Counted from the stretch's first letter, positions 9,612 to 44,943 are shown. The stretch is DNA of 64,000 bases from an uncultured Candidatus Saccharibacteria bacterium (GCA_964654205.1 CAZZHR010000002.1:65800-129799); one strand, 5' to 3'. The notes: a model not told the origin generated them from the letters alone. Numbers and translations are program-made.

Positions 9612-10112
9612 CTATAAACTCATCACTACCTTCCCAATAATGTCGACTTGTTGAACTGCTCCGAAGACGCGCCCATCGCTGCTCTTGCTGCGATTGTCAC
9701 CGAGCACAAGGTAATCTTCTGGCCCGAGTTGCATACGAAATGCTCCATTGTTCGTCCCGCCTATCATGCTTCCCGTCTCGTACCTCGTACTCTTTCCTTC
9801 GCTATCAGTGACCGTCACTCCATCTTCGCCAAGCTCTACAAGCTCACCGGGCAAGCCAATCACCCGTTTCACTTCAATCACCTCTTTCTGGTGCGGATTG
9901 CGATGCACGAGTATGTCGCCACGGCTAATGTGGAATCGGTGAGTCACCTTTTCGACGATAACAACGTCGTTCGCAGAAAACGTCGGCTCCATCGAGCCGC
10001 CAGAGACCACGTACGGACGGAAAATGAAAACCGAAGACAGCAGCGCGAGCGCAATGACAGTCGCAATCGTCTCTTTGTGCGTTCGTATCGTTGTGTGCAA
10101 TTGGTACGTCAT
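9612..10112 (-). CDS. lepB: Signal peptidase I
   Basis: N-terminal TM, catalytic-Ser box GGSMEPT and the VLGDNRSKSSDGR box. Start lies 3 nt after the stop of the giant upstream gene. Confidence 0.8.
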   Translation of the reverse strand: MTYQLHTTIRTHKETIATVIALALLSSVFIFRPYVVSGGSMEPTFSANDVVIVEKVTHRFHISRGDILVHRNPHQKEVIEVKRVIGLPGELVELGEDGVTVTDSEGKSTRYETGSMIGGTNNGAFRMQLGPEDYLVLGDNRSKSSDGRVFGAVQQVDIIGKVVMSL

Positions 10113-10114: not shown

Positions 10115-13100
10115 CTAAATTTCCATCCCGAGCATGAGCGCGAGGGCTTGGACGAAGCTGTTTGATGTGGCGGCAGGGGCGGCAGAATATTTGAACGGCT
10201 GCTCCGCGAACGCGGCGTAGACCATTGTGTCGCCGCTCGTGTTGAGGAAGGTGGTTCTTAACTTGAAACCATTGGCTAGAGAATCAATGACGTCTGCGGG
10301 TGCCGACTCTTGAGACGAACCATCGGCGCCCAAAACGCCACTTATTGGATTGTAGGTGTTCCTTGTTGTATCCAACATCCACCAACTACCCGTCGTTCCA
10401 ACCGCGGGCTTAAGCATGACAAACCGCGGCTTGAAGCCGGTGTAGACGAACGGACCGTCGGTCGAGCCATTGCCGGTGTAGGAGCCAAATGCCGACATGC
10501 CGGTCGTGGAGGCAAAGAGGTACGCCGCGTACTCGCTCCCGCCACCTACGCCGCCCGGTGTGCTCGAGGAATCGGTGAGTGCGCCGTTCTCCGTAAATGC
10601 TCCGCCTCGCCCCCTGTTGATGTGCCAATTGTCGCTCGTTCCAGAGAAGTACACATCGGGGACGAGTGTGGAACCGACCCCGATGACGGGCACGGGTTCG
10701 CCATTCGCGTCGATGAAGAAGCGCCTATTGGCTTCGACCGAGAGGTCCAGGCTCGTCCCGAACTTTATCCAAAGGTCTTTGATGTCTCCCGTGAGCTTGA
10801 AGCCCGCGTCCGGTTCCGCCCCCACCGCGAAGTTGCCTCTCGTCCAGTCGATCGTGTCGTTGGTAAGCGTGGAGCCGCCCGAATTGAAGTCGCTCACATC
10901 GTTGCGGTAGACCCAGGCGGAGCCGGTGTTTAGGTCGACCGAGAAGAGGTAGTGCACCCAGCCACTCGAGGCGAGCGTCTGCGTCGAGGAGTTCAGGATC
11001 ATGTCGAAGTTGTTGGACGCGTCGAGCCCCACGACCTGGATCACCTGCGTACCCGCCGTGCGTACGATGTAGAAGCCCGTGCCGAGGTCTCCCGTCGCTG
11101 CGATCGTCTGGTTGGTGCTATCTGCGCCCGTAATGTTGACCCAAAAAGAGACAGTTAACCGTTTGCCGTCCACGACGTCTGTGAGGTTTGCACCGCGCGT
11201 GAGGTAATCGTTGGTACCGTCGAAATGCGCGGCGCCGCCTTTGTTCACATCGGCATTCGTCCCCACGGTGAAGGCGCTTGCGGTAGGCGCGGTGTCGTTC
11301 CAGTAGGTCGCGTCGTCGGCAGTCGCAGCTGTGCTGTTGAGCAATAGATAGTCAGTCGCCGGTGCAGATGTATTGGACGAGTGATAGACCGCCCAATCGC
11401 CGGAGCCCGAAGCTTGTGTGTACGAGCGGAGCATCGCGCTCCCCTGATCGGCGATCGCCACGCTTGTGGCAGAGAGCGCCGCAACCGCGGGGTTCGGAGT
11501 CGTGCCGTCGACGATACCGCTCCCGTCGGCCACCTCTCTCCAATCGGTACCGTCGAAGGCGTACACACGGAGCTCGTTGGTCGTTGAGTCCACGAATGCC
11601 ACTCTGTTGCGGCCCAGCGCCGCCATGCCCGTCGAGCCTCCACTCGATTCGATTGTGAGAGAATTGCCCACCTGAGACCAATTCGTGCCGTCGAAATCAT
11701 ACGCGCGCAGCTGCTTTGTCCCCGAGTAGTCGTAGAGGGCTACGCGCGAAGCCGAGAGCGCCGCGAGGGAAGGGAGTGTGATGCCGCTGATGTTGAGCTC
11801 GTTCCCAGTCAGAGTCCAGTTGGTGCCGTCGAAATCATACGCGCGCAAGTCGTCGTTGGTGCCGTCGATAAAGGCTATGCGGTCGGACAGGAGCCCCGCA
11901 AGCGCGGGAGATCCCACGCCCGAGATGTTGAGCTCGTTGCCGGTCAGCGACCATGTAGAGCCGTTGAAATCGTATGCGCGCAAGTCGTCATTCCCGCTGT
12001 CAATAAATGCGACACGGCTCGAAAGCATAGTTGCGAGCGAGGGCGACCCTATACCCGAGATGCTGAGTCCGCTTCCTGTGAGAGACCAATTCGACGAGCT
12101 CAGGTCGTATGCGCGCAAAGACGCATTCCCGAAATCAACATATGCCACCCTCGTCGCGGAGAGCGCGGCAAGCGCGGGAGTATTGATACCGCTTATCGTG
12201 AGGCTGTTGCTCGTCTGTGCCCAGTCTCCGCGCACCTCTTTCACGAGCATGAAGTCCGGCGCTTTACCGAGCGAATGGCTCACCGTCCTGCTCTTACCCG
12301 TCCCCTTGTACGAGACGATGTCGAACCCGGCCTCCGCCGTCTCTTTCCAGAGCCATGAGATGTAGTTCTTGCCGCTCGTGTTGACGTTGGCCGAGCTCGC
12401 GCCGGAGCCGAGGCTGAAGCCGTTGTCGTCGTACGACGTGAGCGATTCCGTGTCGTCGACATCTTCACCGGCGGTCAGATTGGAGCTGAGCCACGCCTGC
12501 ACCCCGCGCAGAGCATCGAAGAGCGCATGGTTGGTCGAAGCGTCGGTACGGTTCTTTATCCACACGAGGTCGGGGCTAAAGCCGGTAACCGTTGTGCTTG
12601 TACCCGTCTGGTAGACAGACTTTGCCGCACCCGTGCCTGCGTACGCGATCGCATCAAAATAATTCTTCGGCACCACCACATCCGGCTCGGGCAAGTTGGC
12701 GGTCGAGAGTGCTTTGAAGCCAGAGGGCGGTTCGTATCTGAAATATCCCCCCGCCGCCGAGTAGTGCGTCGTCGTAGTTGTCCCTGGCTGACCAAAGTTT
12801 ATTGAAGCGCTTGCACCCGTGTAGACGGCGAGTGATGGAAATACAGGGTCAGCTCCGCTGAGTGTGGCGGCAGCTCCTGTGCCTCCTACTGGGTCACCAC
12901 TGTTCTGCCATGTCCCGTTTTTTGAGAAGTAAATCTTCTTGTTATCCAAATCAAGCGCTACACCGACGACATCGTTCGTTGTAAACGTATTGCCGTACGC
13001 GGCATTGGTCCCTCCGTTGTACGTCGTACCATCATGCCCGTAGTAGCTGATGCCCCCATTAGCAGACGAGCCGCCGGGAAATGCGCCGAGTGTCATCGGA

Positions 13101-14242
13101 GTGAACGCTGTGGAAGTTGCAACCCCGACGAGATAAAAATTACTGCCACTACTCTGTGCACCAGCTGTCACTTCCCAATACCATTTACCACTCGTGACAC
13201 CAATAATTGAGAGTGCCGTAAGAAAATTCCCAGCACTATGAGTCATACTCAAGTTGCCTTGAGAAAGAGTCAGCGAAGAGTTTTTGTAAATCGAGTTAAG
13301 TGTCGCAAACGCGTTCGTCGGGGTGTCGATGACTTGGTCGGTTGCGTCGAGGTTGTTGGCGGTCCAGTTGTTGCCGTTGCCGGATGTGTCGGTGCCAAGC
13401 GCCGCACTGTTGCCAAAGGCGAGCTTGAAGCCATTTGTCCCATACGTGCCCGTGTACGACTTCGGCCGCCAGTATCCATTGGCGTCGTACTCGCCGAAAG
13501 AGGTGGGCGTGAGCGCCTGCCCGTCGACAAAATGTAGGTCGGAGAGGTAGACATCAATCGAGCAACATGCACCCCCTTGTTGCTGACCGATACGATTGTT
13601 CGCATTGGCGAGCGCGAATTGGTACTCAGCGTTTTGTGCGGGATAATTCGCAGCGTCAAACGCCGTAATCTGCATCCCATCGATGTACATCTTCACTCTA
13701 TTCGCTGCAGTCGCATCTGTCGTGTCCCACACAACTACGACATGCATCCATTTTGATGGATCGCGAAAAAGTGCCGAGCTGCGAAGTTCGGCGGAAGTAG
13801 CCCCGCCGAAGGCGAAACTCAGGTTGTCCGCTGCAGCGCCGCCCGCCCCGAATTCAAGCCACGAAGAATTGCTCGACGAACCATCGTAGCCGGCAACTAT
13901 CGTTTGTCTCGTCCCCAAATTCCCCCTTTTTATCCACGTAGATATCGTTCCCTTCTTACGGTCAGCGGGTGCACCGGAGAATGTCTTGCTTAGGTTTGCA
14001 CTGTCATCGTCGTTGAAGCGAGCGCTGTTCGCGATCGTGTACGCCGCCTCCGCCTGCGGGAGTGTGAGAAGCGCAAACTGCGCGCCAAACCACGCCAGCG
14101 CGACAATCGCCGCCACAACCACCCGCCACCTCCACAGCCCGTTCAAAGCGTTCAAGGAGGCGTGCAAGGGGCGCCCTTGCACATGTGCAAGGGCGCCCCT
14201 TGCGCCGGAGATTTTGAGAAACTTGGTGAAGAGATTACTCAT
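10115..14242 (-). CDS. Giant secreted/surface protein (1375 aa): LamG/ConA-like, SPRY, seven ~40-aa tandem repeats, a second LamG-like domain
   Basis: SPRY signature GKWYWEV...VGVA...DVVGVALDLDNKKIYFSKNG. Seven repeats of I(S/T)G(I/V)G(S/T)P(S/A)LA..LS.R(V/I)AF(I/V)D.GN..LRAYDF(N/D)G(S/T)NW(S/T)LTGN.L. N-terminal TM. A likely alternative start is the GTG at 14122, preceded by GGAGG. Confidence 0.8.
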   Translation of the reverse strand: MSNLFTKFLKISGARGALAHVQGRPLHASLNALNGLWRWRVVVAAIVALAWFGAQFALLTLPQAEAAYTIANSARFNDDDSANLSKTFSGAPADRKKGTISTWIKRGNLGTRQTIVAGYDGSSSNSSWLEFGAGGAAADNLSFAFGGATSAELRSSALFRDPSKWMHVVVVWDTTDATAANRVKMYIDGMQITAFDAANYPAQNAEYQFALANANNRIGQQQGGACCSIDVYLSDLHFVDGQALTPTSFGEYDANGYWRPKSYTGTYGTNGFKLAFGNSAALGTDTSGNGNNWTANNLDATDQVIDTPTNAFATLNSIYKNSSLTLSQGNLSMTHSAGNFLTALSIIGVTSGKWYWEVTAGAQSSGSNFYLVGVATSTAFTPMTLGAFPGGSSANGGISYYGHDGTTYNGGTNAAYGNTFTTNDVVGVALDLDNKKIYFSKNGTWQNSGDPVGGTGAAATLSGADPVFPSLAVYTGASASINFGQPGTTTTTHYSAAGGYFRYEPPSGFKALSTANLPEPDVVVPKNYFDAIAYAGTGAAKSVYQTGTSTTVTGFSPDLVWIKNRTDASTNHALFDALRGVQAWLSSNLTAGEDVDDTESLTSYDDNGFSLGSGASSANVNTSGKNYISWLWKETAEAGFDIVSYKGTGKSRTVSHSLGKAPDFMLVKEVRGDWAQTSNSLTISGINTPALAALSATRVAYVDFGNASLRAYDLSSSNWSLTGSGLSISGIGSPSLATMLSSRVAFIDSGNDDLRAYDFNGSTWSLTGNELNISGVGSPALAGLLSDRIAFIDGTNDDLRAYDFDGTNWTLTGNELNISGITLPSLAALSASRVALYDYSGTKQLRAYDFDGTNWSQVGNSLTIESSGGSTGMAALGRNRVAFVDSTTNELRVYAFDGTDWREVADGSGIVDGTTPNPAVAALSATSVAIADQGSAMLRSYTQASGSGDWAVYHSSNTSAPATDYLLLNSTAATADDATYWNDTAPTASAFTVGTNADVNKGGAAHFDGTNDYLTRGANLTDVVDGKRLTVSFWVNITGADSTNQTIAATGDLGTGFYIVRTAGTQVIQVVGLDASNNFDMILNSSTQTLASSGWVHYLFSVDLNTGSAWVYRNDVSDFNSGGSTLTNDTIDWTRGNFAVGAEPDAGFKLTGDIKDLWIKFGTSLDLSVEANRRFFIDANGEPVPVIGVGSTLVPDVYFSGTSDNWHINRGRGGAFTENGALTDSSSTPGGVGGGSEYAAYLFASTTGMSAFGSYTGNGSTDGPFVYTGFKPRFVMLKPAVGTTGSWWMLDTTRNTYNPISGVLGADGSSQESAPADVIDSLANGFKLRTTFLNTSGDTMVYAAFAEQPFKYSAAPAATSNSFVQALALMLGMEI
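14162..14205. repeat. Two abutting copies of a 21-nt GC-rich near-palindromic REP-like element (GTGCAAGGGGCGCCCTTGCAC / GTGCAAGGGCGCCCCTTGCgC)
   Basis: Read directly from the sequence. A third copy lies at 14733-14753, inside the adjacent RAYT gene. Confidence 0.75.
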
Positions 14243-14901
14243 ACTTCGTCGAGCATTAATTCTCGGACTGTCGATTTCCGTGCGACGATGTCGTCGAAAG
14301 CGTCTTCAACGAAACGCTGGTACTCGCGCGCACTCTTGAAGTGCTCAAGGATTGTTGCCGTATCACACAATCCCCCGGTATCTGGCGAGAGGTACTCGGC
14401 ATAGCTACTATGCGGCCACTTTCGAGCGTCTCGCACAAGCTTCGCCACTTGGGGATTCACATGAATATAGGCCGAGAGGTGTTTGAGTTGCGTATCGTCT
14501 ACCACATGCACGGCCTTGATGCGATCCTGAAATACATGTCCCACATGATCGTACTTGCGATTGAAGTACATCGAGTAGCTCGTCAGTAGTTTCAGAAAAA
14601 GTTTACTAATCGATACATCTTTGTTCTGTCGTATGAGAAAATGGAAATGATTAGGCATAAGACAGTACACAGCAATCGAGAATGCATCTCTTTCGAATGG
14701 CTCGATGCGAATCTGGACGCGCTTCCCGCCGGTGTGCAAGGGCGCCCCTTGCACATCGCGACCGAGAGAGCGCATAAGTCGGTCTAGGAAAACTCGTGCA
14801 TCCTCATCATCTCGAAGGATGTCCATCTTGCCATTGCCGCGGCTGAAGAGGTGGTACCACTCTCCTGTCGAGAACTCTTTGTAGTCGCGTGAATTTGTCA
14901 T
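14239..14901 (-). CDS. REP-associated tyrosine transposase (RAYT; IS200/IS605-like Y1 HUH transposase, COG1943)
   Basis: GEWYHLFSRGNGK, HUH motif YCLMPNHFHFLI, KLLTSYSMYFNRKY, and catalytic-Tyr region WPHSSYAEY. Contains an in-frame REP copy. Confidence 0.75.
   Translation of the reverse strand: MTNSRDYKEFSTGEWYHLFSRGNGKMDILRDDEDARVFLDRLMRSLGRDVQGAPLHTGGKRVQIRIEPFERDAFSIAVYCLMPNHFHFLIRQNKDVSISKLFLKLLTSYSMYFNRKYDHVGHVFQDRIKAVHVVDDTQLKHLSAYIHVNPQVAKLVRDARKWPHSSYAEYLSPDTGGLCDTATILEHFKSAREYQRFVEDAFDDIVARKSTVRELMLDEV
14733..14753. repeat. REP-like 21-nt palindrome GTGCAAGGGCGCCCCTTGCAC inside the RAYT coding sequence
   Basis: Identical to the units at 14162-14205. Encodes DVQGAPLHT in the RAYT frame. 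Confidence 0.75.
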
Positions 14902-14911: not shown

Positions 14912-17900
14912 TCATCTAAAGCCCGTGGCAGCCGCGCCGAATACGACGAGCGAGCTGGTCGCATTGGTCGCGACAAATGAGACGAGGTCACATTGGTTGG
15001 CCGTCGTGGTGAGTGTCGGTGCGCTTCCACCCTGCCAGCGCACGACCGCTGGCCAGGTCAGTGTGCGGCTTCCCGTGCCGTCTTGGCACACCACGAGACG
15101 GAGGATTTGCCCCGCGATGAAATTGGAGAATGTAATCGTGCGGTTGCCGCCGAGTGTCACCTTCTGCTGGTTGCCTTCAAGCCAGTTGATAGCCACGGTC
15201 GCGCCGTCGGAGAGACTCCTTTCCACCGTGGTGATAGCGCCACCCGCACCCACCGCAAATTTCGCAAACGGCGTCGATGTACCCACACCCACGTTGCCGT
15301 TGGCGTTGATGACAAAGAGGGACTGCGCTGTGGTGGAAGCGACCTGTATGAAGTTGGTCGAGCTATCCTGCGTCTCTATCGTGAGCTTGGCCGCAGGGGT
15401 CGTGGTGCCGATTCCTGCCGCTGTCTCTACATAGAGCTTGCCCGCTCCAGTCGGCGACGTGGGGCAGCCGGATGCGCAGACAAGGAGGTTGTCGTCGGAG
15501 AGCAGAATGTTTTTGTTGGACGTGTGTATCGTAAGGTCGCCAGTCGAGTCCACTTGGAGCGAGGCGACCGTGGAATCATTGTACGAAATCGCTACCTGAG
15601 GATTCGCCGCTGCAGCCGTCACCGAGAACTTGCGGTACGGCGATGTGGTGCCGACACCGAAGAATCCGGCACTCGTGGCGCGCATCACCTCGGTGAGCGC
15701 GCCACTTTGCAGTGTCGAGAACACGAGGTCGCCCTTCCCGAGCCCGCCGAAGTTCTGTTGCAAGATGCTCGTGATTGCAGAAGTCGTCGTACCCGTGCCG
15801 GTGACATCGAGCGCGCGGAATGAGAGCCGCGATGCGGTCGATGTCGCGCTCGCCGCATTGGTGAGGTAGAGCTGGTCGGCGGTCGCGCCGGAAGATGTGT
15901 TGTAGACATCGAGCTTCGTGCCCGGCGTCGTCGTACCGATGCCGACATTGCCCGTGCTGGTGATGCGCATTCGCTCTTGGCTCGACTCATATCCACCAGT
16001 CCTAAACTGAATACTGTCGGAGCCGCCTGATGCAACATTCCCGTTGGTAAAGAGCACCAGACTAGTATTCGAACCGAAACTCGTGTTTCCGCCGAGACCG
16101 TATCCGACACCAGACCCGTACGCACGGAAGTAGCCTGTCGCAGTATCGCTATGTACAGTGTATGTGCTCTGACCATTGCTATTTGCATTCGTCACCGTGA
16201 CCCCGTCGACGCTCGCTACATTGCTGTACACAGTGAGTTTTGTAGACGGAGTCGTCGTCCCTACCCCCACGTTGCCGGTGTTTGTCACCGCAAAGAGCGA
16301 GCTCGTCGCGCTCGCGGTCGAGCTCGCTATCTCGAAGAGCATCGTATTGGTCTCGCCCGACAGTGCGTGCACTGAGAGCTTAGCCCACGGCGACGACGTG
16401 CCGATACCGAAGCGCGCATTGACCGTATCCCACGTGAGCGTACTCGACGCCGCCATCACGCCGCCGTAGTTGAATTGTATGTTGCCGTTGCCGCCTGCCG
16501 GAGCCGAGCCGCCGGATGCGAGGAGGGAGCCGGAGAAGTATGTGTAGACTGCCGAACCATCGACAGCTGTACCCGTTGAAAGCACCGCTGCTTCGAGATA
16601 GTCGGATGTTCCATTCATGTCGACAATGGTGGTTACTTGCGCCGCATCTGCACCACCCGATCGATAGGGACCGTTTGCTATCGCGACACCGTTCTTACGG
16701 ACAGCTGCCTGACAGTTGTTTGTGGTATTTGTACATCCAACAGACGCGACAACGATATACTTGCCGGCTACCGTAGGTGTGAAGCGGTTGGTCGTTAGGT
16801 CAAAATTGTTGTTGGTATCGTAAGTTTCAGTCGTCCAATCGACCACAAGTACCGTATCGCTCACAGTGGTTGTCGCCGACCCATTGCGATGCACATGGAA
16901 CGCTACCGTAGAAGAAGCGGTTCCAACCGTGCGGTTCGTGTAGACCTTGACCGCGAATCCGCCTGCGCCGCCTGCGCCGCCTGCGCCTCCAGTGCCCGCA
17001 TTTCCAGCGCTACCCCCGGAGCCAACGGTGAAATAGAAAGTCCCCGTCGGACTGCCTACAAGCTCGTACGCGTATCCTCCGCCTCCACCTCCGCCTCCAC
17101 TCCATACGTTGTTGAGATCATTGATTCCGCCGCCAGCCCCTCCTCCTCCGAACGCGTTGCCTGCGCCGCCTGCTGCCGTAGTACCCGCTCCGCCACCCCC
17201 ACCGCGGGCACCATTGCCCCCCGCTCCTCCCACTGCGTACAGATCTTGCGTCTCCCCACCATCCGCATCAATACCAAGCGTGAGTCCGCCTGCACCACCA
17301 ACGAGATTTACTTCGCCACCGGAGCCAGAACCGCCAGATGCCGCAGGCCCATTGGAGCCAGACCCACCGCCTCCGCCCGTCGCACTTAAGTGCGGAGAGG
17401 AGCATGCGACAGAATTGCTTCCGAAGCATGTCGTACCTCCTACGCCACCATTGCCGCCGTTGCCTCCACCGCCACCCCCTCCACCGCCGCCCCAAACCTC
17501 CACTTCTATATATGACGTATCGCTCGGGAGCGTGAGCGTGCCACCGGAGAAGCTCGGTGCGCTGCCGGGGTCTCCGGTGAAGACCACCGACGAGGTTCCC
17601 ACAGTGGAAGTCGCGTATGTTCCTATGAGCGTGTTGCCACCACCTCCGCCTCCACTCGAGCCGCTCCCCGTCCCCGCACACTGTCCGCTCGGGAGCAGGA
17701 AGCAGCCGCTCGTGAGTTGGACGCCACCCGCAAAGGTGGATGTTGCCGAGCCGGTGATATTGAGGAGTGTTGATTGAATGCCGCCAGAGAATGTTGTGGT
17801 GGAAGGCGACCCAAACGTCGCTGCGCCGGTGGATGCCGAGAACGAGAGCGCGGCTACCGTAGAAGTCGACGAGTGCGTCGAGGTGGCGAGGTAGAAGGTG

Positions 17901-20900
17901 CTGCCGATGTTGCGGAGTGTCCAGAGATTGCTGCCGAGCCCGTCCGAGAGCGCGAGCTGCGGACCTGTCGAGCTCGCGACCGTAAGAATATGGTACGGTG
18001 TCGTCGTACCGATGCCGAACGTACCGTTGAAATAGCCGAGACCGTTGTCGAGAATGCGGAAGCGCGTCGTCGAGGCGGAGTCGAAGAATTCCGTGAGTAT
18101 GCCCGTGCCCGTCCCAGATCCCTGCACTGAGAGCTTAGCCCACGGTGACGTGGTGCCGATTCCGACGTTGCCCGTCGAACCCTGAATGAGCATTCTCGTC
18201 GCGTAACTCCCGGCCGTTGCGTTGGCCTTGAAATGGAGGTCGCCATTGTTGCCCGTCTGCCCTATCTCCGCCCAGCCCGTGCCAGTACCCGCGCCGCCGG
18301 TCGTGAATATCATGCTGCCGACGTTGCCTGTACCGGCTCTGTTGAGGAAGAGTCGGAAGTCGCCCGACGTGTCAAAGGCCGCACTCGTACCGAAGACGTC
18401 GAGCTTACTCCCCGGCGTCGTCGTACCGATTCCCACGCTGCCGGTGCTCTTTACCGCCAAAAGGTCACCGCCGGATCCGCTCGATGAGTTGAGCTGCAAG
18501 AGGTCCGCGCTGGAACCGGTATGAAGACTTCCAACGATGACGGGCTTCGCGATGTCGTGCTCGTTGTAGATGTTGAAGATACCTGTAAAGGTCGGGGAGG
18601 TTTTGCCAAAACCGATCTCCCCCGTGGGACTGACGATGAAGGCGTTGACGCCGTCGGTCCTGTTCTGGAAGAAGAGCGCCCCAGCAGGAGTATTGCCGCT
18701 ATCCCCCGCGAGGAAGCCCCATTTCTTACCGCCGGAGTCCGTATTCTGGAGATTGAACCACGGATCGCTGCCGCTCACATGGAACTTCGCGTCGCTTGAA
18801 GCTGCGCCCACGCCGAGCAGACCCTGCACGAGTAGGTTACCTGTCGTCGTCGCGCCGCCTGAGATCGTGAGGCCGCCCGCCTGTGTGCCGTCGCCGATGG
18901 TGGAACTTGCTGTGACACCGAGGCCGCCAGTTACAGCGAGTGTGGTCCACGGACTTACGTTGCCGATACCGACACTTCCACCACCGCTTTGAAGGACGAG
19001 ATTATTCCATGCACCGGCACCGCTGCTCTGTGCGCTGAGTCCAAAATAAGTATTGCCCGTGCTCGCGCCCGACGCTACAAAGAGCACCGAACCGGCTGAA
19101 CCAGAGACCCAATCGCTCGTCGTTATCGCAAGTTGTGAAGGCGCATTACCGCCAGTAATTTGCAACTTACCGTTGGTCGGACTCGCCGTGCCGATACCGA
19201 AGTTGCCGCTGATGCGGTCGACGAAGACGAGCGGCGAGGAGGTACCGACGGTAAAGAGCGAGGTCGATGGCGGCGTCGATGTGCCGACGGCGAGACCGCC
19301 GGAGGCGATTGTGCTCGTCGCCGTCGTCGAAGTGGCGACGAAATATGAAGCGTCGACGAATGACGTAAAGCGAGCATTGCCACTAACGTGAAGCTTATAG
19401 GTGGGAGAGGTATTACCTATACCTACAGAGCCAGCTGTATTGAGGAACAATAAGTCTGTCGCCGCGGCGCCCGTGCTGATGGAAAATCCAGAGCTATCGT
19501 TACCACTGATTCCGACTTTCCATTCTGGAGTCGTACCGCTTCTGACAAAGCTGACATTCGGTGCCACATTTCCGTTTATCAAAATTCCTTGATACGTCGT
19601 TCCTGCAGTCACATGGAGTGGCTGCTGCGGATTTGTTGTTCCAATTCCAACCCGACCGCTTGGGTTCCAAATGCCGGAGCCCGGGAAGAATGCGGTGCCA
19701 GAGACAGAGAGCGCGGTTGAGGACGCATACGGGAACGTGGACGCTGCTGTGGTAGAAGTCGCAGTGAAGATTGGCGCGGTGATGGTGTTGTATGCGGTGA
19801 GTGCGCCGCGCAGGAGTGAGCTGCCCGCGACTGAGAGGTTTCCGCTTGAGTCGATGGTCGTCGTCGCGCTGCCGCCGAAGTACGCAGTGCCAAAGTTGGA
19901 GAAGTTAGTACTCGACGCATTCCCCGAGAATATCTGGAGCGCCGTCCAGTTGTTGGAGACACTTGTGTCCACGGAGCCCCCACCGCCCGTGATACAAGCA
20001 CCGTCTACGGCAAAGCATCCGTCGGCGAGGTTTATTCCATTGGCAAATGTGGTAGTAGCCGAGCCGGTAAAGGTAATATCGCTCAGCGTAGTCCCAGAAA
20101 GGGTACCGCCCGTAATCGTCGAGTCGGAGATATCGACGCTGCTGAGCTGATCGATTTTGTTTGTGTGCGCGACCGTCTGATACACATTGGTAATACTTGC
20201 CGACTGCGCTGTAGAGACACCGGCGACGAGGCTTGTGAGTCGCTGTTCCACGGCTGCGATCCGCGTATCGAGGTCGGCATCCGTGATGCCGCCGACAGAT
20301 GCAACTATGCGCTCGGTCTCGACGATACGTTCAACGACTCGTTCGTTTGTCACCACAGTCGATGTGCTCACAACAACAGGCGTTTGCTGCGATTGCGCTA
20401 CGATAACCTGTGCGCGTTCATACGGATCCATCGTGTCGATGAATCCCGCATCGAGCGGTGTAAGTGCGAGCGAGTTCGTCGCGTCACTCGGGAACACGAT
20501 GTTGTAGACGAACGTGTCGACGCTCGTGTTGACTGCCTTCGCGATGGTGCGCAGCGCATCAGGGAAGAAAGAAAGTGTCGCGCTCGATACTTGTGCGAGC
20601 GCGACCTCGGGATTCTCAACCGCATAGTACGTCGCATCACTCGCCGCGCGCACCGCGCGCGTCGCCACTTCATCAACTCGTACGAGCGACTGCGCGACGC
20701 TCGCCGCCATCTCGCGCGTAGTCTCCGCTGCAAACCGCGCATAGGCTGGGTCGACAAACGCATACGTGCCAAATGTCATGGTGAACGCAACGAGCATCGC
20801 GACAAACTTCTGCAGAAACTCCGTCGCGGGAGAAATCGTGTACACCGGCACGTGCACATGTGCGTGACTCAAAGTACGAGCAACCGCCTCGTGCACGCCC

Positions 20901-21349
20901 GACGGCGCCGCTGCGATAGACGGCATCGCGTGAGCGACCTTCGCGCTCTGCGCCACCGCCGCAGCCTTCAATTTTTCCTGCACATGCTTCGCGTGCGCCG
21001 CCAACGTCTTCGTCACAGGTATTTGTCCGCTCACAGAAAGGGCGCTCTCGACACTCTTTACACTTTCAGATTTCAACTTTATATCTTGTGGCTTATTCTC
21101 CACCCCGTGATATTCACGCACCCGTTCATCCGACAGCTGCTCCCTGCGGATGGTTTTCGCATGCTCTTGCTCCACGAGGTATTTTTGGAGCGAGCCCTCA
21201 TCGACGTACCAGTTCTTGCCGATTCTTCTACCGCGAAGCCTTCCATCACGGCAAAGACGAGCGATGTAGTCGCGAGAGAGCCCTGCACTGGATGAAGCAT
21301 CCCCGGCCGAGAGGTGCTTCTGCCCGTCGAAATATATTTCGTTGCTCAT
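14912..21349 (-). CDS. Giant membrane protein (~2145 aa): cytoplasmic excisionase-type HTH (HTH_17-like), one TM, then a huge extracellular fibre-like region with >25 GN(V/I)GIGTT(S/T)P..KL.V repeats and a poly-Gly stretch
   Basis: Start set at the ATG at 21349 (MSNEIYFDG). The listed ORF begins at an upstream GTG. N-terminus LSRDYIARLCRDGRLRGRRIGKNWYVDEGSL aligns with the HTH repeats of the neighbouring gene. TM is FLQKFVAMLVAFTMTFGTYAFV. Repeats resemble tail-fibre proteins. Confidence 0.8.
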   Translation of the reverse strand: MSNEIYFDGQKHLSAGDASSSAGLSRDYIARLCRDGRLRGRRIGKNWYVDEGSLQKYLVEQEHAKTIRREQLSDERVREYHGVENKPQDIKLKSESVKSVESALSVSGQIPVTKTLAAHAKHVQEKLKAAAVAQSAKVAHAMPSIAAAPSGVHEAVARTLSHAHVHVPVYTISPATEFLQKFVAMLVAFTMTFGTYAFVDPAYARFAAETTREMAASVAQSLVRVDEVATRAVRAASDATYYAVENPEVALAQVSSATLSFFPDALRTIAKAVNTSVDTFVYNIVFPSDATNSLALTPLDAGFIDTMDPYERAQVIVAQSQQTPVVVSTSTVVTNERVVERIVETERIVASVGGITDADLDTRIAAVEQRLTSLVAGVSTAQSASITNVYQTVAHTNKIDQLSSVDISDSTITGGTLSGTTLSDITFTGSATTTFANGINLADGCFAVDGACITGGGGSVDTSVSNNWTALQIFSGNASSTNFSNFGTAYFGGSATTTIDSSGNLSVAGSSLLRGALTAYNTITAPIFTATSTTAASTFPYASSTALSVSGTAFFPGSGIWNPSGRVGIGTTNPQQPLHVTAGTTYQGILINGNVAPNVSFVRSGTTPEWKVGISGNDSSGFSISTGAAATDLLFLNTAGSVGIGNTSPTYKLHVSGNARFTSFVDASYFVATSTTATSTIASGGLAVGTSTPPSTSLFTVGTSSPLVFVDRISGNFGIGTASPTNGKLQITGGNAPSQLAITTSDWVSGSAGSVLFVASGASTGNTYFGLSAQSSGAGAWNNLVLQSGGGSVGIGNVSPWTTLAVTGGLGVTASSTIGDGTQAGGLTISGGATTTGNLLVQGLLGVGAASSDAKFHVSGSDPWFNLQNTDSGGKKWGFLAGDSGNTPAGALFFQNRTDGVNAFIVSPTGEIGFGKTSPTFTGIFNIYNEHDIAKPVIVGSLHTGSSADLLQLNSSSGSGGDLLAVKSTGSVGIGTTTPGSKLDVFGTSAAFDTSGDFRLFLNRAGTGNVGSMIFTTGGAGTGTGWAEIGQTGNNGDLHFKANATAGSYATRMLIQGSTGNVGIGTTSPWAKLSVQGSGTGTGILTEFFDSASTTRFRILDNGLGYFNGTFGIGTTTPYHILTVASSTGPQLALSDGLGSNLWTLRNIGSTFYLATSTHSSTSTVAALSFSASTGAATFGSPSTTTFSGGIQSTLLNITGSATSTFAGGVQLTSGCFLLPSGQCAGTGSGSSGGGGGGNTLIGTYATSTVGTSSVVFTGDPGSAPSFSGGTLTLPSDTSYIEVEVWGGGGGGGGGGNGGNGGVGGTTCFGSNSVACSSPHLSATGGGGGSGSNGPAASGGSGSGGEVNLVGGAGGLTLGIDADGGETQDLYAVGGAGGNGARGGGGGAGTTAAGGAGNAFGGGGAGGGINDLNNVWSGGGGGGGGYAYELVGSPTGTFYFTVGSGGSAGNAGTGGAGGAGGAGGFAVKVYTNRTVGTASSTVAFHVHRNGSATTTVSDTVLVVDWTTETYDTNNNFDLTTNRFTPTVAGKYIVVASVGCTNTTNNCQAAVRKNGVAIANGPYRSGGADAAQVTTIVDMNGTSDYLEAAVLSTGTAVDGSAVYTYFSGSLLASGGSAPAGGNGNIQFNYGGVMAASSTLTWDTVNARFGIGTSSPWAKLSVHALSGETNTMLFEIASSTASATSSLFAVTNTGNVGVGTTTPSTKLTVYSNVASVDGVTVTNANSNGQSTYTVHSDTATGYFRAYGSGVGYGLGGNTSFGSNTSLVLFTNGNVASGGSDSIQFRTGGYESSQERMRITSTGNVGIGTTTPGTKLDVYNTSSGATADQLYLTNAASATSTASRLSFRALDVTGTGTTTSAITSILQQNFGGLGKGDLVFSTLQSGALTEVMRATSAGFFGVGTTSPYRKFSVTAAAANPQVAISYNDSTVASLQVDSTGDLTIHTSNKNILLSDDNLLVCASGCPTSPTGAGKLYVETAAGIGTTTPAAKLTIETQDSSTNFIQVASTTAQSLFVINANGNVGVGTSTPFAKFAVGAGGAITTVERSLSDGATVAINWLEGNQQKVTLGGNRTITFSNFIAGQILRLVVCQDGTGSRTLTWPAVVRWQGGSAPTLTTTANQCDLVSFVATNATSSLVVFGAAATGFR

Positions 21350-21640
21350 GAGCGATGATGCCTGTGGCCGGACGCACGATTTATCTAATATTCTACTACT
21401 CTTTTCGCCAATTGGACGTGTATCGGACACTATTACGTGTGGACAAGCCTAAGCAGAATTTGTACCGGACATTTTTTACATTTTTTCCCACAAGTTCGTA
21501 TCAACGCACAAAAAATTCTCCGTTTTTTTGAAAAAAAGCCTCTTCACTACAACCTCTCACCTCTTACCTACCCCCCTCCTCCCGGCCGACTCGGGCATCC
21601 GAGGAGCGACGTAGAGCGGTATTCCGCGCGTGTGTGGCGC

Positions 21641-21670
21641 AGAAAATGAACGGCGCCCAATTGGGCGCCG
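21641..21670 (-). terminator. Rho-independent terminator (minus strand): cggcgcccaattgggcgccg followed by TTCATTTTCT
   Basis: 8-bp GC stem and a T-rich tract on the minus strand, 25 nt after the stop of the 21696..22682 gene. Confidence 0.55.
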
Positions 21671-21695
21671 CCTTAAGGCCTAGTCACTACACGAA

Positions 21696-22682
21696 TCAGC
21701 GCGAATAGCGTACTTCTTTGCTCACGATGGCTTCCAGAAGGTCGATGAGTACTTCGAGGCCACTCGCTGCATTTGCGGTCATGGTCTCAACCGCGCCAAC
21801 ATCTGCCGCCTCGAACATTGCGTAAAGTGATTCACTCTTGATCGACGCAAAGCCATACGACATCACGATGACCACGGTGAGAGCCACGCCCGCTTTTATC
21901 GCCAAAGACTTAGACATTCCGGGCATCCGTCCACGTCGCATGGGTGCCGTCTTGGCCACTGCATGCGGCACAGCACCTGCACGAGCCCGCGTCTCAACAA
22001 TGCGAATCAGTACAGCATTCGGAAGCGGCTCCAACGCCGCGCTTCGCACTTCATCATTCGCCACCGTTTTCACGTCGGCTGTCGCATTTTGAGTGTCGCC
22101 CTTCAGCTGAGGTTTGTTCACCATTGGCATAAGATGCTTCTCGTCCCGGATGTAGGTGTAGTACGAGGTAGGCCTCTCATCTGATCTCAGCCCTTGAGGC
22201 ACATTACTCGGTGCCGGTCGTACCAGGCCTACTGCATCCGCCTGGACTGCAGCGAGAAGCGAATCTTTCTGGGATTTATGCGTCAAAAGGCCGTTTCTCT
22301 CGACATACCAGCGATTCCCTATTTGCCGAGAGAGTATTTTGCCGGCCCGAGCGAGCTGACCAATGTAGTCAGGATTGTAGCCTGTCATTTTCGCGGCCTT
22401 TGCCGCCGAGACATAGTCCTTGCCATCGAAGGTAATGAGTGTGTCGGCTGCGTCCACAGGCCGTATAGGGGCTTCTGGTGGCCTTGGGACGAATGAATCA
22501 GCATTGCGCTTGTACGCTTCGAGTGAGGCAGGATTCACGTACCAGAGCCCGCCTACGCGCTGCGCGTCGATGACTCCACCGCGCGCAAGCTGGCCGACGT
22601 AGTCCTGCGCGTAGCCGTATTCCTTTGCCGCGCGCTTCGAAGATATATATGTCGTTCCGCCGAGATATAGCTGATCTGCCAT
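21696..22682 (-). CDS. Membrane-tethered protein with two tandem excisionase-type HTH (HTH_17-like) domains, one TM and a short external tail
   Basis: Two copies of the pattern ..Y(I/V)S...AAK..GY..DY(V/I)GQLAR.G.I...R(V/I)G..WYV. TM is LAIKAGVALTVVIVMSYGFASI, preceded by RRGRMPGMSK (N-in). Start at MADQLY with a TATACT -10 box 6 nt upstream. Confidence 0.6.
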   Translation of the reverse strand: MADQLYLGGTTYISSKRAAKEYGYAQDYVGQLARGGVIDAQRVGGLWYVNPASLEAYKRNADSFVPRPPEAPIRPVDAADTLITFDGKDYVSAAKAAKMTGYNPDYIGQLARAGKILSRQIGNRWYVERNGLLTHKSQKDSLLAAVQADAVGLVRPAPSNVPQGLRSDERPTSYYTYIRDEKHLMPMVNKPQLKGDTQNATADVKTVANDEVRSAALEPLPNAVLIRIVETRARAGAVPHAVAKTAPMRRGRMPGMSKSLAIKAGVALTVVIVMSYGFASIKSESLYAMFEAADVGAVETMTANAASGLEVLIDLLEAIVSKEVRYSR

Positions 22683-27226: not shown

Positions 27227-27298
27227 CTACGCGCGCTTCTTGCGCTTCGTGGCCTTCTTTTTCTTGGCTGTCTTTTTCGCCTTCTTTTTCTTTGCCAT
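27227..27298 (-). CDS. Possible tiny lysine-rich peptide, 23 aa (MAKKKKAKKTAKKKKATKRKKRA)
   Basis: An ATG...TAG ORF on the minus strand ending right at the terminator hairpin. No SD, but an AAATAT -10-like box 8 nt upstream. Below the 60-aa cutoff of the ORF track. Could equally be noise in a K-codon-rich AT stretch. Confidence 0.2.
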   Translation of the reverse strand: MAKKKKAKKTAKKKKATKRKKRA

Positions 27299-27757
27299 GG
27301 TCGTAAATATTTTGAGAGTATTAAACTCGACCTTCGCTTCGCGCGCGAAACGCTACAGCGTTTACATAATTATTGCACTCATGCATGTAAAGAAATGTTT
27401 TTTGAAAAAATTGTGTGGATAACTCTTTTATTTTTTAAAATGTATCTCTGATGTAGAAATCAGTTATATGAAATTACTTTCACAGGAAGATATTCAGTAC
27501 GTACTTGAGAAGACATTTCCTTCCGTACACTCCGCGTCGCTCGCCCATACGCAGAAACACCCTTCTGAGGGGTGTTTCTGAAAGACGCACAGCGGAGGAC
27601 GGGTGCGAGCTCCAAAAAAAGTGAAAGTCTTATGTGAGTGCCGCCGCCCTCCGCAATACGCCCTTTTAGTCCTACGACAAAGAGTAACACCCTGTCCTTG
27701 AGTGACAACCTCTATTCGTTGCACACTACTCAGATACGAGACTTGCGTATAATCAGC

Positions 27758-27786: not shown

Positions 27787-28437
27787 CTATCGTTCTCCCA
27801 AACCGAAGTGCACTCGCAAGGGTTTATCGTACTCGATTGCGTCCGCAATAATGTATCTCACCTCCGTTCGCAGCGATGCGTCTAGCTTCAGAAGCGTTAT
27901 GATTTCTTCACAATCATACGGGTGCACCCATACGCTGTTTTGCAATCGGTGAAAACCAAGTCTCTTTAATATTTCGCGTACACGATCTCGCGTAGAGCGC
28001 CGCGCATGCGGAATGTCGAATATCACGACTCGCCAACGTCCGTCCCATCGACGCGGCCTAGGTATTTCTACGGCCGAAAGCCGGATGCGTTCCGCATGTG
28101 ACTTTCCCCTCTCCGTCAGTATGGGGTAACGTTTGCCCGAGTGCCGCATAAACTCGACCATCCCTTTTTTCTTCAATCTCGAGAGTGTCTCCCGCAGCCT
28201 CTGCGTGGGCTGCGGGGGCAGGATTACATCAAGGTGTTCTCTTTTGATGAGCGCAGCGACTTTCGGCGCCATCACCGCTACCGTGAGAATTCCTCCGAGA
28301 GCGAGCGTACCTATCACAGCTCTTTCTATCGATCCGCGTCTCAACCGCAGACGAACTCCACTCTCCTGGGATACGCGCGATTCTTGCTCACGCCTCTTCT
28401 GGGTATTCTGTTTTTGCCGCATGAGTGCATTGTACAA
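27787..28437 (-). CDS. PaaX-family-like protein (winged-helix N-domain plus Cas2-like/PaaX_C domain) with an N-terminal TM segment
   Basis: C-terminal WDGRWRVVIFDIPHARRSTRDRVREILKRLGFHRLQNSVWVHP matches the PaaX C-terminal signature (W.G.W..V.FD.PE..R...R..L...GF..LQ.SVW..P). TM is AVIGTLALGGILTVAVMAP. Confidence 0.5.
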   Translation of the reverse strand: MYNALMRQKQNTQKRREQESRVSQESGVRLRLRRGSIERAVIGTLALGGILTVAVMAPKVAALIKREHLDVILPPQPTQRLRETLSRLKKKGMVEFMRHSGKRYPILTERGKSHAERIRLSAVEIPRPRRWDGRWRVVIFDIPHARRSTRDRVREILKRLGFHRLQNSVWVHPYDCEEIITLLKLDASLRTEVRYIIADAIEYDKPLRVHFGLGER

Positions 28438-28471: not shown

Positions 28472-28521
28472 AATTCAGGAATGTTCCCTTTAGTCCTGTT
28501 GTGCAGTGTGCATAAACTGAA

Positions 28522-30854: not shown

Positions 30855-30867
30855 AGCCGGGATTCTA

Positions 30868-31686: not shown

Positions 31687-31718
31687 AGTGGCGTCATCCT
31701 AGCAGAGAGGGCGCACGC

Positions 31719-32459: not shown

Positions 32460-32559
32460 CCGCAACTCATATGCGTCCAGCTCTCATCACCCCGATACCA
32501 CAATGCTACGCATTGGCTACGGGGCAGGCCGGCGGCATACCTGGTGAGATTTCCTGACT

Positions 32560-35055: not shown

Positions 35056-35069
35056 AGCGTAAGTCTATA

Positions 35070-36614: not shown

Positions 36615-36650
36615 TGGATTCTAGCGAGTACAGTATGGCATACTACCCGC

Positions 36651-38865: not shown

Positions 38866-38976
38866 ACAAGAAGTGAATGCGTGACACTTTAGCATGAATT
38901 GAACCGAGTGGCTTAGTCTGATAAGGTTGCTCTGGATGGGCTCTTTGACAGAGGGCCGCAACGAAGGGGTGAAACG

Positions 38977-40740: not shown

Positions 40741-40821
40741 ATTCGTTGCTTCACAGTTCTTCCGCCCCGGGCTTGTCCCGGGGCCTTTTCTTTTACTACG
40801 ATTCCTGGCTATACTCGCCGC

Positions 40822-43811: not shown

Positions 43812-43814
43812 CTC

Positions 43815-44942: not shown

Positions 44943-44943
44943 A

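What the first reader, a model, noticed from the sequence alone, without database searches (positions are those of the whole stretch)
14912..22682. Giant fibre-like surface protein with a cytoplasmic excisionase-type HTH: a ToxR-like membrane-tethered DNA-binding giant, plus a 2xHTH sibling
The 2145-aa protein starts with a ~55-aa segment (LSRDYIARLCRDGRLRGRRIGKNWYVDEGSLQKYL). That segment aligns with two tandem repeats at the N-terminus of the next gene: AAKEYGYAQDYVGQLARGGVIDAQRVGGLWYV and AAKMTGYNPDYIGQLARAGKILSRQIGNRWYV. The pattern fits the excisionase/MerR-type HTH_17 DNA-binding fold. In both proteins the HTH region is followed by a single TM helix, with positive charges on the HTH side, so the HTH is predicted cytoplasmic and the rest external. 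In the giant protein the external part is ~1900 aa of GN(V/I)GIGTT(S/T)P..KL.V fibre repeats plus a poly-Gly tract. A DNA-binding domain wired through the membrane to a phage-tail-fibre-like ectodomain is not a described architecture. It suggests a one-component trans-membrane transcription factor whose sensor is a giant adhesin or fibre, with a smaller paralog as partner or competitor.
Basis: partly seen in the sequence, partly recalled or inferred. Interest (0 to 1): 0.8.

Follow-up and report, generated by a model that had tools for sequence, protein, structure and literature searches.

The report
Membrane fibre with cytoplasmic DNA-binding head
An ultrasmall (CPR, Kaiserbacteria-type) bacterium encodes a giant tail-fibre-like surface protein whose inner end is an excisionase-type DNA-binding domain, always next to a small membrane protein with two such domains; the pair is conserved in over 50 species and its job is unknown.

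Summary
On the minus strand, 14912..21349 encodes a 2145-aa protein and 21696..22682 a 328-aa protein. The small protein has two HTH_17 domains above Pfam's threshold. The giant has one, below threshold on its own but homologous to both (BLASTP E 9e-13). AlphaFold models (pLDDT about 90) match Xis, BldC, RacA and TraN. Each protein has one hydrophobic helix after the HTH. Charge bias puts the HTH in the cytoplasm for the small protein, but says nothing for the giant. The giant's outer part resembles phage and Bdellovibrio fibres.

The two genes sit side by side in 58 of 59 related Kaiserbacteria/Parcubacteria loci. In metagenomes, 138 of 145 cluster representatives begin with the HTH, and they reach 3958 aa. 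The outer part varies greatly; the N-terminal module does not.

The giant's promoter carries a conserved, phased array of 9-mers headed by TTATCCACA. That is the DnaA-box consensus, but it is also the layout Xis-type proteins bind.

The ToxR-like reading is partly supported: the architecture is real, while transcription control is untested. RodZ-like protein binding or plain anchoring remain possible. I found no published description. It is best filed as a new variant of transmembrane DNA-binding regulators.

The parts
14912..21349 (-). Giant gene, 2145 aa: HTH_17 - basic helix - linker - single hydrophobic helix - juxtamembrane/stalk - fibre repeats - Gly-rich block - C1q-like region - fibre repeats - tail-fibre tip
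   Evidence: ORF. Start confirmed by homologues. Domain evidence.
21164..21349 (-). Giant residues 1-62: excisionase-type winged HTH
   Evidence: Pfam HTH_17 21.3 bits, below the gathering score of 27. BLASTP to both sibling repeats at E 9e-13. AF2 pLDDT about 90. Foldseek matches Pukovnik Xis (prob 1.00, rmsd 1.8 A over 46 columns), BldC and RacA.
20750..20818 (-). Giant residues 178-200: predicted single transmembrane helix (FLQKFVAMLVAFTMTFGTYAFVD) with the conserved flank VDPxYARFAA
   Evidence: Kyte-Doolittle peak 1.55. Conserved across homologues. A hydrophobic segment 100-250 residues after the HTH in most of the related giants (none reached the cut-off in 5 partial ones) and in all 48 HTH-bearing representatives of 900 aa or more.
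15230..19657 (-). Giant residues 565-2040: region holding the 12 GxVGIGTTxP..KL.V fibre repeats, rich in Ser, Thr and Gly
   Evidence: Motif count and composition. PDB 8ond_A Bd2133 fibre at E 4.9e-6. PHROG tail-fibre families at 8e-13.
16940..17497 (-). Giant residues about 1285-1470: Gly-rich block with poly-Gly runs
   Evidence: 31-38 Gly per 100 residues.
16520..16903 (-). Giant residues 1483-1610: weak C1q/TNF-like match
   Evidence: Pfam C1q E 0.0039, 17.8 bits, below the gathering score. Cerebellin-1 at E 0.25.
14930..15217 (-). Giant residues about 2045-2140: C-terminal tip shared with phage tail-fibre and minor tail proteins
   Evidence: tblastn against phages, 37-47% identity, E down to 3e-10. 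phrog_9017 tail fibre.
21390..21446 (-). Promoter region of the giant: TTGTCCACA box (21438..21446) at -48, GTCC-core repeats, and TAGTAGAAT (21390..21398) as the likely -10
   Evidence: The architecture is conserved in 48 of 55 species, with same-orientation 9-mers at -48, -36, -25 and -14.
21649..21672 (-). Terminator-like hairpin after the sibling gene
   Evidence: It implies that the giant has its own promoter.
21696..22682 (-). Sibling gene, 328 aa: 2 x HTH_17 - basic disordered linker - TM helix - short acidic outer tail
22494..22682 (-). Sibling residues 1-63: first HTH_17 domain
   Evidence: pLDDT 90-98. Foldseek matches TraN, Xis, BldC and RacA.
22233..22445 (-). Sibling residues 80-150: second HTH_17 domain plus C-terminal helix
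   Evidence: Best Pfam stretch at residues 91-133. pLDDT 93-97.
21831..21914 (-). Sibling residues 257-284: transmembrane helix
   Evidence: Positive-inside bias in 49 of 53 orthologues. The linker before it has pI 10.2 and the tail after it pI 4.3.

Best explanation
This is a conserved two-gene envelope module of Kaiserbacteria-type CPR bacteria. The giant is a single-pass membrane protein with its N-terminus inside and its C-terminus outside. The outer 1900 aa form a tail-fibre-like, probably trimeric, adhesin or host-recognition fibre with a swappable tip. The inner 180 aa carry a Xis/BldC/RacA-type winged HTH on a basic helix and a flexible linker. The upstream partner is a membrane protein with two copies of the same HTH facing the cytoplasm.

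The most likely mechanism is that the HTH domains bind DNA from the membrane, as ToxR-type transmembrane regulators and DNA-membrane tethers do, and so link the base of the fibre to the nucleoid. The best candidate target is the phased array of direct 9-mers in the giant gene's own promoter.

Shown here: the domain folds, the architecture, the gene pairing, its conservation, and the existence of the promoter array. Inferred: the giant's topology, trimer formation, DNA binding, the identity of the DNA target, and any signalling.
For: HTH fold and family:
- Pfam HTH_17 scores 38.5 bits for the sibling and 21.3 bits for the giant.
- The giant's HTH aligns to both sibling repeats at E 9e-13.
- AF2 models have pLDDT of about 90 or more, with identical topology in all three domains.
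- The best Foldseek matches are DNA-bound or DNA-binding Xis, BldC, RacA, TraN and RdfS, at prob 0.9-1.0 and rmsd about 2 A over 46-57 columns.
- The residues that the HTH_17 family conserves are kept and nearly invariant across species: the helix RDYIARLCR or QDYxGQLAR, and the wing R-x-G-x-x-W-Y-V.
- The HTH domains and cytoplasmic linkers are basic, pI 8-10.2.

Topology:
- The sibling family shows a strong positive-inside bias.
- The giant has no signal peptide, only one hydrophobic segment, and an outer part that resembles fibres.

Conservation:
- The sibling lies immediately upstream of the giant, on the same strand, in 58 of 59 loci from Kaiserbacteria/Parcubacteria genomes.
- 375 cluster representatives match at E <= 1e-30. 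Of the best 145, 138 start with the HTH, and 48 are 900-3958 aa long.
- The N-terminal module is conserved while the outer part varies in length and content.

Candidate DNA site:
- Same-orientation 9-mers at -48, -36, -25 and -14 from a -10-like TAGTAAAAT occur in 48 of 55 species.
- From my own knowledge, Xis-type proteins bind tandem direct repeats at helical spacing.
Against: - No experiment or computation here shows DNA binding.
- The giant's local charge distribution does not support, or contradict, an N-in topology.
- The head of the promoter array is the exact DnaA-box consensus. The same box also sits upstream of another promoter nearby. DnaA or another global factor may therefore own the site.
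- The recognition helices are invariant, so no covariation test with the DNA was possible.
- In one relative the downstream giant carries an ordinary signal peptide and no HTH. The fibre therefore does not need the HTH in order to be made.
- The HTH subfamily has no significant sequence match to any solved structure.
Confidence: 0.4

Rival explanations
1. The HTH domains are protein-binding or purely anchoring modules. They would work as in RodZ, whose cytoplasmic HTH binds MreB. They would fix or position the fibre base through a cytoplasmic partner, or simply stop the N-terminus being pulled through the membrane. DNA would not be the ligand.
For: - RodZ-type proteins (HTH_25+DUF4115) share the HTH - TM - outer domain layout and appear in the TTR survey's table.
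- The recognition helix is invariant over species that share only about 30-40% identity elsewhere. This fits a conserved protein partner as well as it fits a conserved DNA site.
- The HTH domains are only mildly basic, with net charge +1 to +3.
- The fibre can exist with a plain signal peptide instead.
Against: - All the closest structural relatives are DNA binders.
- The wing arginine and the helix arginines typical of HTH_17 are conserved.
- No candidate partner gene is conserved in the neighbourhood other than the sibling itself.
Confidence: 0.25
2. The N-terminal HTH-TM part is a long leader that is cut off, either by signal peptidase I or by intramembrane proteolysis. The fibre would then be released or re-anchored, and the HTH fragment would act separately, possibly as a released regulator.
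For: - A signal peptidase I gene ends the same apparent operon: giant, Y1-like gene, DUF7483 giant, then S26 peptidase, with overlapping or abutting stops and starts.
- A conserved motif, VDPxYARFAA, follows the helix directly.
- Short stand-alone HTH-TM proteins of about 300 aa exist in some relatives.
Against: - The conserved motif does not obey the -3/-1 rule across homologues. Position -3 is Q or E in several, or F for the alternative site.
- The neighbouring DUF7483 giant has an ordinary signal peptide, which is enough to explain the peptidase gene.
- There is no evidence of processing.
Confidence: 0.15
3. The promoter array consists of DnaA boxes and has nothing to do with the HTH proteins. 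A high-affinity TTATCCACA box would nucleate a DnaA oligomer over weaker boxes in the same orientation 2-3 bp apart, reaching the -35 region. Expression of the giant fibre would then be tied to DnaA status.
For: - Exact DnaA-box consensus in 23 species, and at most one mismatch in about 43 of 48.
- The 11-12 bp phasing and single orientation resemble the low-affinity arrays of E. coli oriC (own knowledge).
- The same box lies at a similar distance upstream of a second conserved promoter near secA.
Against: - In the window's own clade the inner repeats keep only a GTCC core and are poor DnaA boxes.
- DnaA binding was not tested.
- The region is not an origin: there is no GC-skew switch, and all flanking genes are on one strand.
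Confidence: 0.35
4. The architecture is an artefact: a mis-called start, a fusion of two genes, or an assembly chimera.
For: Many related contigs end inside the giant gene, which shows that it is hard to assemble.
Against: - One uninterrupted ORF runs from the HTH to the tip in the window.
- The same holds in complete giants of other genomes, including a closed 859-kb chromosome.
- The start is conserved in all homologues.
Confidence: 0.01

Closest known systems
Transmembrane transcription regulators (TTRs; ToxR, TcpP, CadC and the wider set surveyed in PMC10269533)
   Same: A DNA-binding domain and a single membrane helix in one polypeptide, with an extracytoplasmic remainder. Single-pass forms dominate the class. 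HTH_17 is already listed as the DNA-binding domain of 151 of 50,302 TTRs.
   Different: - ToxR-family members use an OmpR-type winged helix and have small periplasmic sensor domains.
- Here the domain is HTH_17 and the outer part is a 0.3-3.7 kaa tail-fibre-like protein.
- A dedicated 2xHTH membrane partner is always present.
- Regulation of transcription is not shown.
Excisionase / MerR-like small DNA binders: Pukovnik Xis (4j2n), BldC (6ama), RacA N-domain (5i44), RdfS (8dgl)
   Same: Same fold, with TM-score 0.6-0.73 normalised to the target and rmsd about 2 A. Same Pfam family for the sibling.
   Different: - Those proteins are soluble.
- There is no significant sequence match to any of them.
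- The present domains have an extra N-terminal hairpin and are tethered to the membrane.
TraN of plasmid pIP501 (4pm3, 4p0z)
   Same: Two excisionase-like HTH units in one chain. It is the best Foldseek match of the sibling, at prob 0.98-0.99.
   Different: - TraN is a soluble accessory protein of a conjugative type IV secretion system.
- There are no T4SS genes here.
- The overall rmsd of about 22 A shows that the relative placement of the two domains differs or is undefined.
Bdellovibrio MAT fibres (Bd2133, 8ond; PMC10769870) and phage tail fibres
   Same: Sequence similarity of the repeat region (E 4.9e-6), PHROG tail-fibre families and a phage-like C-terminal tip. These are cell-surface fibres of a bacterium that lives on other bacteria, with exchangeable tips.
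   Different: - MAT fibres have a signal peptide and a conserved 130-aa beta-rich anchor domain, and many end in an S74 chaperone-protease.
- Here the anchor is HTH-TM, and Pfam reported no S74 domain.
RodZ (HTH_25 - TM - DUF4115)
   Same: A cytoplasmic N-terminal HTH, one membrane helix and an outer domain. It shows that such an HTH need not bind DNA.
   Different: A different HTH family (XRE type), a different outer domain and no sequence relation. Pfam reported neither HTH_25 nor DUF4115 for either protein.

Membership tests
HTH_17 / excisionase-type winged helix (PF12728) | Score at or above Pfam's gathering score (27 bits) | tested here: met
   The sibling scores 38.5 bits in two stretches. 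The giant alone scores 21.3 bits, below threshold, but is homologous to both sibling repeats at E 9e-13.
HTH_17 / excisionase-type winged helix (PF12728) | Helix-turn-helix followed by a beta-hairpin wing, with fold similarity to solved Xis/MerR-type domains | tested here: met
   AF2 pLDDT of about 90 or more. Foldseek matches Xis, BldC, RacA, TraN and RdfS at prob 0.9-1.0.
HTH_17 / excisionase-type winged helix (PF12728) | Binds DNA | not testable with these tools
   Only indirect support: conserved Arg residues in helix and wing, and basic pI.
NCBIfam TIGR01764 'excise' domain | Score at or above the curated cut-off (28.8 bits) | tested here: not met
   14.9 bits for the giant and 18.7 bits for the sibling.
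Transmembrane transcription regulators (broad class) | A DNA-binding-type domain and at least one transmembrane segment in one protein | tested here: met
Transmembrane transcription regulators (broad class) | The DNA-binding domain faces the cytoplasm | tested here: inconclusive
   The sibling family has a clear positive-inside bias. The giant family does not. For the giant, topology is inferred from the lack of a signal peptide and the fibre-like remainder.
Transmembrane transcription regulators (broad class) | Controls transcription in response to an outside signal | not testable with these tools
   A candidate operator exists, but it is equally a DnaA-box array.
ToxR family in the strict sense | OmpR/PhoB-type winged helix (Trans_reg_C) | tested here: not met
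   The Pfam scan reports HTH_17 only.
Bdellovibrio MAT fibres / phage tail fibres | Sequence similarity of the fibre shaft or tip | tested here: met
   8ond_A at E 4.9e-6. PHROG tail-fibre families at 8e-13. Phage tip domain at 37-47% identity.
Bdellovibrio MAT fibres / phage tail fibres | Signal peptide plus the conserved 130-aa beta-rich N-terminal domain (MAT), or an S74 C-terminal chaperone-protease | tested here: not met
   The N-terminus is HTH-TM. Pfam reported no Peptidase_S74 at E <= 1. The MAT features are taken from PMC10769870.
Bdellovibrio MAT fibres / phage tail fibres | Trimeric fibre | not tested
This is inferred from homology only.
RodZ | HTH_25/XRE-type HTH and a DUF4115 outer domain | tested here: not met
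   Pfam reported neither domain.
TraN-like T4SS DNA-binding proteins | Two excisionase-like HTH units in one chain | tested here: met
   Sibling against 4pm3 and 4p0z, prob 0.98-0.99.
TraN-like T4SS DNA-binding proteins | Encoded within a conjugative type IV secretion locus; soluble | tested here: not met
   The neighbours are secA, gatB, a Wzy_C/TPR protein, glycan-synthesis genes and surface giants. The sibling has a TM helix.
DnaA-box array (for the promoter element) | Match to TTATCCACA, with boxes in the same orientation 2-3 bp apart | tested here: met
DnaA-box array (for the promoter element) | Bound by DnaA | not testable with these tools
   No dnaA gene was found among the window ORFs scanned, and no binding data exist.

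The most novel reading that the evidence does not exclude
The giant fibre and its 2xHTH partner would form a contact- or force-sensing transmembrane DNA-binding complex. A trimeric fibre would bring three Xis-type HTH domains together. With the partner's two, they would assemble head-to-tail on the four phased 9-mers of the fibre gene's own promoter. This would tether the gene to the membrane, so that the 2000-3800-aa product is made and exported on the spot. It could also switch expression when the fibre engages a host cell. That would be a direct physical line from a host-recognition fibre to DNA in an ultrasmall episymbiont.
Probability: 0.15. Interest if true: 0.85.

Novelty: new variant of a known kind. 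Interest (0 to 1): 0.62.

Why it matters
How CPR/Patescibacteria cells recognise hosts and respond to them is largely unknown, and they encode few regulators. This module is conserved across a whole lineage and fuses a variable, phage-like recognition fibre to a DNA-binding-type domain through the membrane.

If the HTH domains bind DNA, this would be the simplest possible path from host contact to the chromosome. It would also extend transmembrane regulators to giant adhesins. If they bind a protein instead, the module would be a new way of anchoring a surface fibre in a cell without an outer membrane. From my own knowledge, such cells may also lack sortase anchoring; that was not tested here.

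Both readings can be tested with small soluble domains and a defined 90-bp promoter fragment.

Tried and rejected
- **Paralogues in the window.** My own HMM of the HTH found no further copies.
- **Prophage origin, rejected.** The locus is syntenic with secA and gatB in about 50 species. The N-terminal module has no phage match.
- **Origin of replication at the DnaA-box cluster, rejected.** There is no GC-skew switch and all genes are co-oriented.
- **Signal peptidase I cleavage after the helix, not supported.** The conserved motif breaks the -3/-1 rule in several homologues.
- **Covariation between promoter repeats and recognition helices, impossible.** The helices are invariant.
- **PDB sequence search with an HTH profile.** No significant hit.
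- **Rfam on the whole window.** No match.
- **Sigma-70 consensus scan of the intergenic region.** Nothing found.
- **AlphaFold-database Foldseek search.** The library was unavailable.
- **Literature searches.** None described HTH-anchored giants in CPR bacteria.
- **AF2 of the giant's residues 83-403.** Low confidence, with mean pLDDT 52 for the whole model, so nothing was concluded about the linker, the juxtamembrane region or the stalk.
- **TTATCCACA between secA and gatB.** These copies are a coding coincidence (V-I-H-K-A codons in secA), not promoters.


Full report
**What is in the sequence.** Both genes lie on the minus strand. The giant is 14912..21349. The ATG at 21349 gives 2145 aa, and every homologue begins MSDEIFFDG at that point, which fixes the start. 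The sibling is 21696..22682, 328 aa. A terminator-like hairpin follows the sibling at 21649..21672, so the giant has its own promoter.

The neighbours upstream, in the direction of transcription, are a Wzy_C/TPR protein, a PaaX/Cas2-like gene, secA and gatB. Downstream, in tight succession, come a Y1-transposase-like gene, a 1375-aa DUF7483/SPRY surface protein with an ordinary signal peptide, and signal peptidase I. The rest of the window, 30-64 kb, is a glycan-synthesis cluster.

**The HTH domains.** Pfam HTH_17 scores 38.5 bits for the sibling in two stretches, against a gathering score of 27. It scores 21.3 bits for the giant at residues 17-58. NCBIfam's excisionase model stays below its cut-off for both. 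The giant's first 82 residues align to each sibling repeat with E 9e-13, so all three domains are homologous.

- AlphaFold of the sibling, using 120 homologues, gives pLDDT 90-98 for residues 1-63 and 80-150.
- AlphaFold of the giant's N-terminus, using 13 sequences, gives about 90 for residues 1-80, with the same order of elements: hairpin, helix, helix, wing hairpin, helix.
- Foldseek against the PDB finds TraN of pIP501, which has two excisionase-like units, as the sibling's best hit. It finds Pukovnik Xis, BldC, RacA and RdfS for both proteins, at probabilities of 0.9-1.0 and rmsd about 2 A over 46-57 columns.
- E-values are weak, as expected for 50-residue domains.
- A sequence profile of the domain finds nothing significant in the PDB. 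The subfamily is therefore divergent.

**Membrane helix and topology.** Each protein has one hydrophobic segment: giant residues 178-200 and sibling residues 257-284.

- In 53 sibling orthologues, the 20 residues before the helix hold on average 4.98 Lys+Arg and the 20 after it hold 2.09.
- The sibling's cytoplasmic linker has pI 10.2 and its 44-residue tail pI 4.3. This is good evidence that the sibling's HTH pair is cytoplasmic.
- For 59 giants the same count is 1.42 against 1.98, which says nothing.
- The giant's N-in topology rests on three points. It has no signal peptide. A folded 60-residue domain sits at the extreme N-terminus. The remainder looks like an extracellular fibre.

**The outer part.** The GxVGIGTTxP..KL.V motif occurs 12 times, at residues 565-1140 and 1692-2040. 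The surrounding sequence is rich in Ser, Thr and Gly and poor in charged residues.

- The region matches the Bdellovibrio fibre Bd2133 (8ond_A, E 4.9e-6).
- It matches PHROG tail-fibre families.
- The last 85 residues or so are 37-47% identical to phage tail-fibre or minor tail proteins.
- A Gly-rich block at about residues 1285-1470 is followed by a weak C1q-like match.
- Bdellovibrio MAT fibres are anchored by a signal peptide plus a beta-rich domain, not by HTH-TM.

**Conservation.** A scan of species-representative genomes with the N-terminal alignment returned 56 loci. By their record titles they are mostly Kaiserbacteria, Parcubacteria, Paceibacterota or other Patescibacteria MAGs, with some titled 'uncultured Candidatus Saccharibacteria' and two titled Bacteriovoracaceae or Hyphomicrobiales.

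- In 58 of 59 loci the 2xHTH sibling (279-341 aa) lies directly upstream of the 1xHTH giant on the same strand. gatB lies upstream in 54 and secA in 49.
- Complete giants range from 929 to 3156 aa, and incomplete ones exceed 3700 aa.
- A few loci hold short forms of about 300 aa, additional HTH-bearing genes, or giants with two HTH domains.
- The N-terminal 400-500 residues are conserved at 28-70% identity. The C-terminal region is shared by only 14 loci.
- An exhaustive HMMER search found 375 cluster representatives at E <= 1e-30. Of the 145 examined, 138 start with the HTH and 48 are 900-3958 aa long.
- The sibling family has at least 682 members of similar length.
- Starting from two sibling homologues, one locus had an HTH-TM giant of 3543 aa. 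The other had a 2739-aa giant with an ordinary signal peptide and no HTH. The fibre slot can therefore change its anchor while the sibling stays.

**A conserved promoter element.** The sibling-giant intergenic region shares a precise architecture in 48 of 55 species.

- A 9-mer sits at -48 from a -10-like TAGTAAAAT. It is TTATCCACA exactly in 23 species, and within one mismatch in about 43.
- Further 9-mers in the same orientation sit at -36, -25 and -14.
- A conserved GGATATCCGGAAT follows, and the start codon lies about 35-50 nt downstream of TAGTAAAAT.
- In the window the elements are TTGTCCACA (21438..21446) and TAGTAGAAT (21390..21398). The inner repeats keep only a GTCC core.

TTATCCACA is the DnaA-box consensus. 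Same-orientation arrays with 11-12 bp phasing are known for DnaA at oriC, and tandem direct repeats at helical spacing are also what Xis-type proteins bind; both points come from my own knowledge. The same box occurs at a similar distance upstream of one other conserved promoter nearby. The region is not an origin. The recognition helices do not vary between species, so no covariation test was possible. I cannot say which protein binds the array.

**Interpretation.** The functional claim goes beyond the evidence.

- The general class, transmembrane transcription regulators, is known and large. HTH_17 is already counted in 151 of 50,302 such proteins (PMC10269533).
- That survey's table also includes RodZ-type HTH_25+DUF4115 proteins. 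From my own knowledge, the RodZ HTH binds MreB. The layout alone therefore does not prove a DNA-binding role.
- I rank membrane-tethered DNA binding first, at confidence 0.4, with the promoter array as the candidate target.
- A protein-binding or anchoring role comes second, at 0.25.
- Proteolytic separation of the N-terminal module comes third, at 0.15.
- Whether the array belongs to DnaA is a separate question, which I put at about 0.35.

**Novelty and score.** I found no description of an HTH-anchored giant fibre, or of the 2xHTH partner family. I file it as a new variant of a known kind and give it an interest of 0.62. It is conserved, unexplained and testable, but its function is still open.

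Noticed in passing
window 27228..27299 (-), promoter box at 27414..27422 (-): There is an unannotated micro-gene for a 23-aa Lys-rich peptide, MAKKKKAKKTAKKKKATKRKKRA. It has its own TTATCCACA-N36-38-TGCAATAAT promoter, a conserved leader that looks structured, and a terminator. A similar ORF of 12-33 aa follows the same promoter in 31 of 34 related loci. Rfam has no match.
   Followed up: partly
window 21380..21470 (-) and the equivalent region of L001-L059: A phased array of DnaA-box-like 9-mers at -48, -36, -25 and -14 lies in the promoter of the giant gene. It is conserved in 48 of 55 species. It could be a DnaA-controlled promoter or an operator for the HTH_17 proteins.
   Followed up: partly
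window 14239..14901 (-); L001 18492..18950, L002 18077..18568: Between the giant and the DUF7483 giant, the window has a 220-aa IS200/REP-tyrosine-transposase-like gene, below NCBIfam's cut-off. Two relatives have instead a 23S_rRNA_IVP four-helix-bundle gene, the family that includes the Avd protein of diversity-generating retroelements (own knowledge). I did not look for a reverse transcriptase or for template and variable repeats.
   Followed up: no
window 10115..14242 (-): A second surface giant of 1375 aa carries DUF7483 x3 plus SPRY, with an ordinary N-terminal signal-anchor. It matches a PHROG 'virion structural protein' family at E 5e-161 and a tail-fibre family. Its stop overlaps the start of signal peptidase I (9612..10112).
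   Followed up: partly
window 28623..31010 (-) and 30000..64000: A Wzy_C + TPR protein lies upstream of secA in 38 related loci. A 30-kb cluster of glycosyltransferases, sugar-modifying enzymes and a flippase adjoins the fibre genes. The Ser/Thr-rich giant may be O-glycosylated, but this is inference only.
   Followed up: no
window 16520..17497 (-), giant residues about 1285-1610: A Gly-rich block with poly-Gly runs is followed directly by a weak C1q/TNF-like match. From my own knowledge this pairing recalls the glycine-rich plus TNF-like module of ALK/LTK receptors. It was not tested structurally.
   Followed up: no
L061 10484..18969: In one relative the HTH-anchored giant (3543 aa) carries precomputed Pfam hits to an intein splicing domain and a bacterial surface Ig-like domain.
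   Followed up: no
L060 10206..18425: A relative has the sibling gene followed by a 2739-aa giant with a classical signal peptide and a BppL_N (phage receptor-binding protein) hit, and no HTH. The intergenic TTTATCCACA box is still present.
   Followed up: partly
window 27787..28437 (-): A PaaX_M/Cas2-like 216-aa gene lies between the Wzy_C gene and the secA region. It has a near-consensus box, TTATGCACA, about 70 nt upstream (28507..28515).
   Followed up: no
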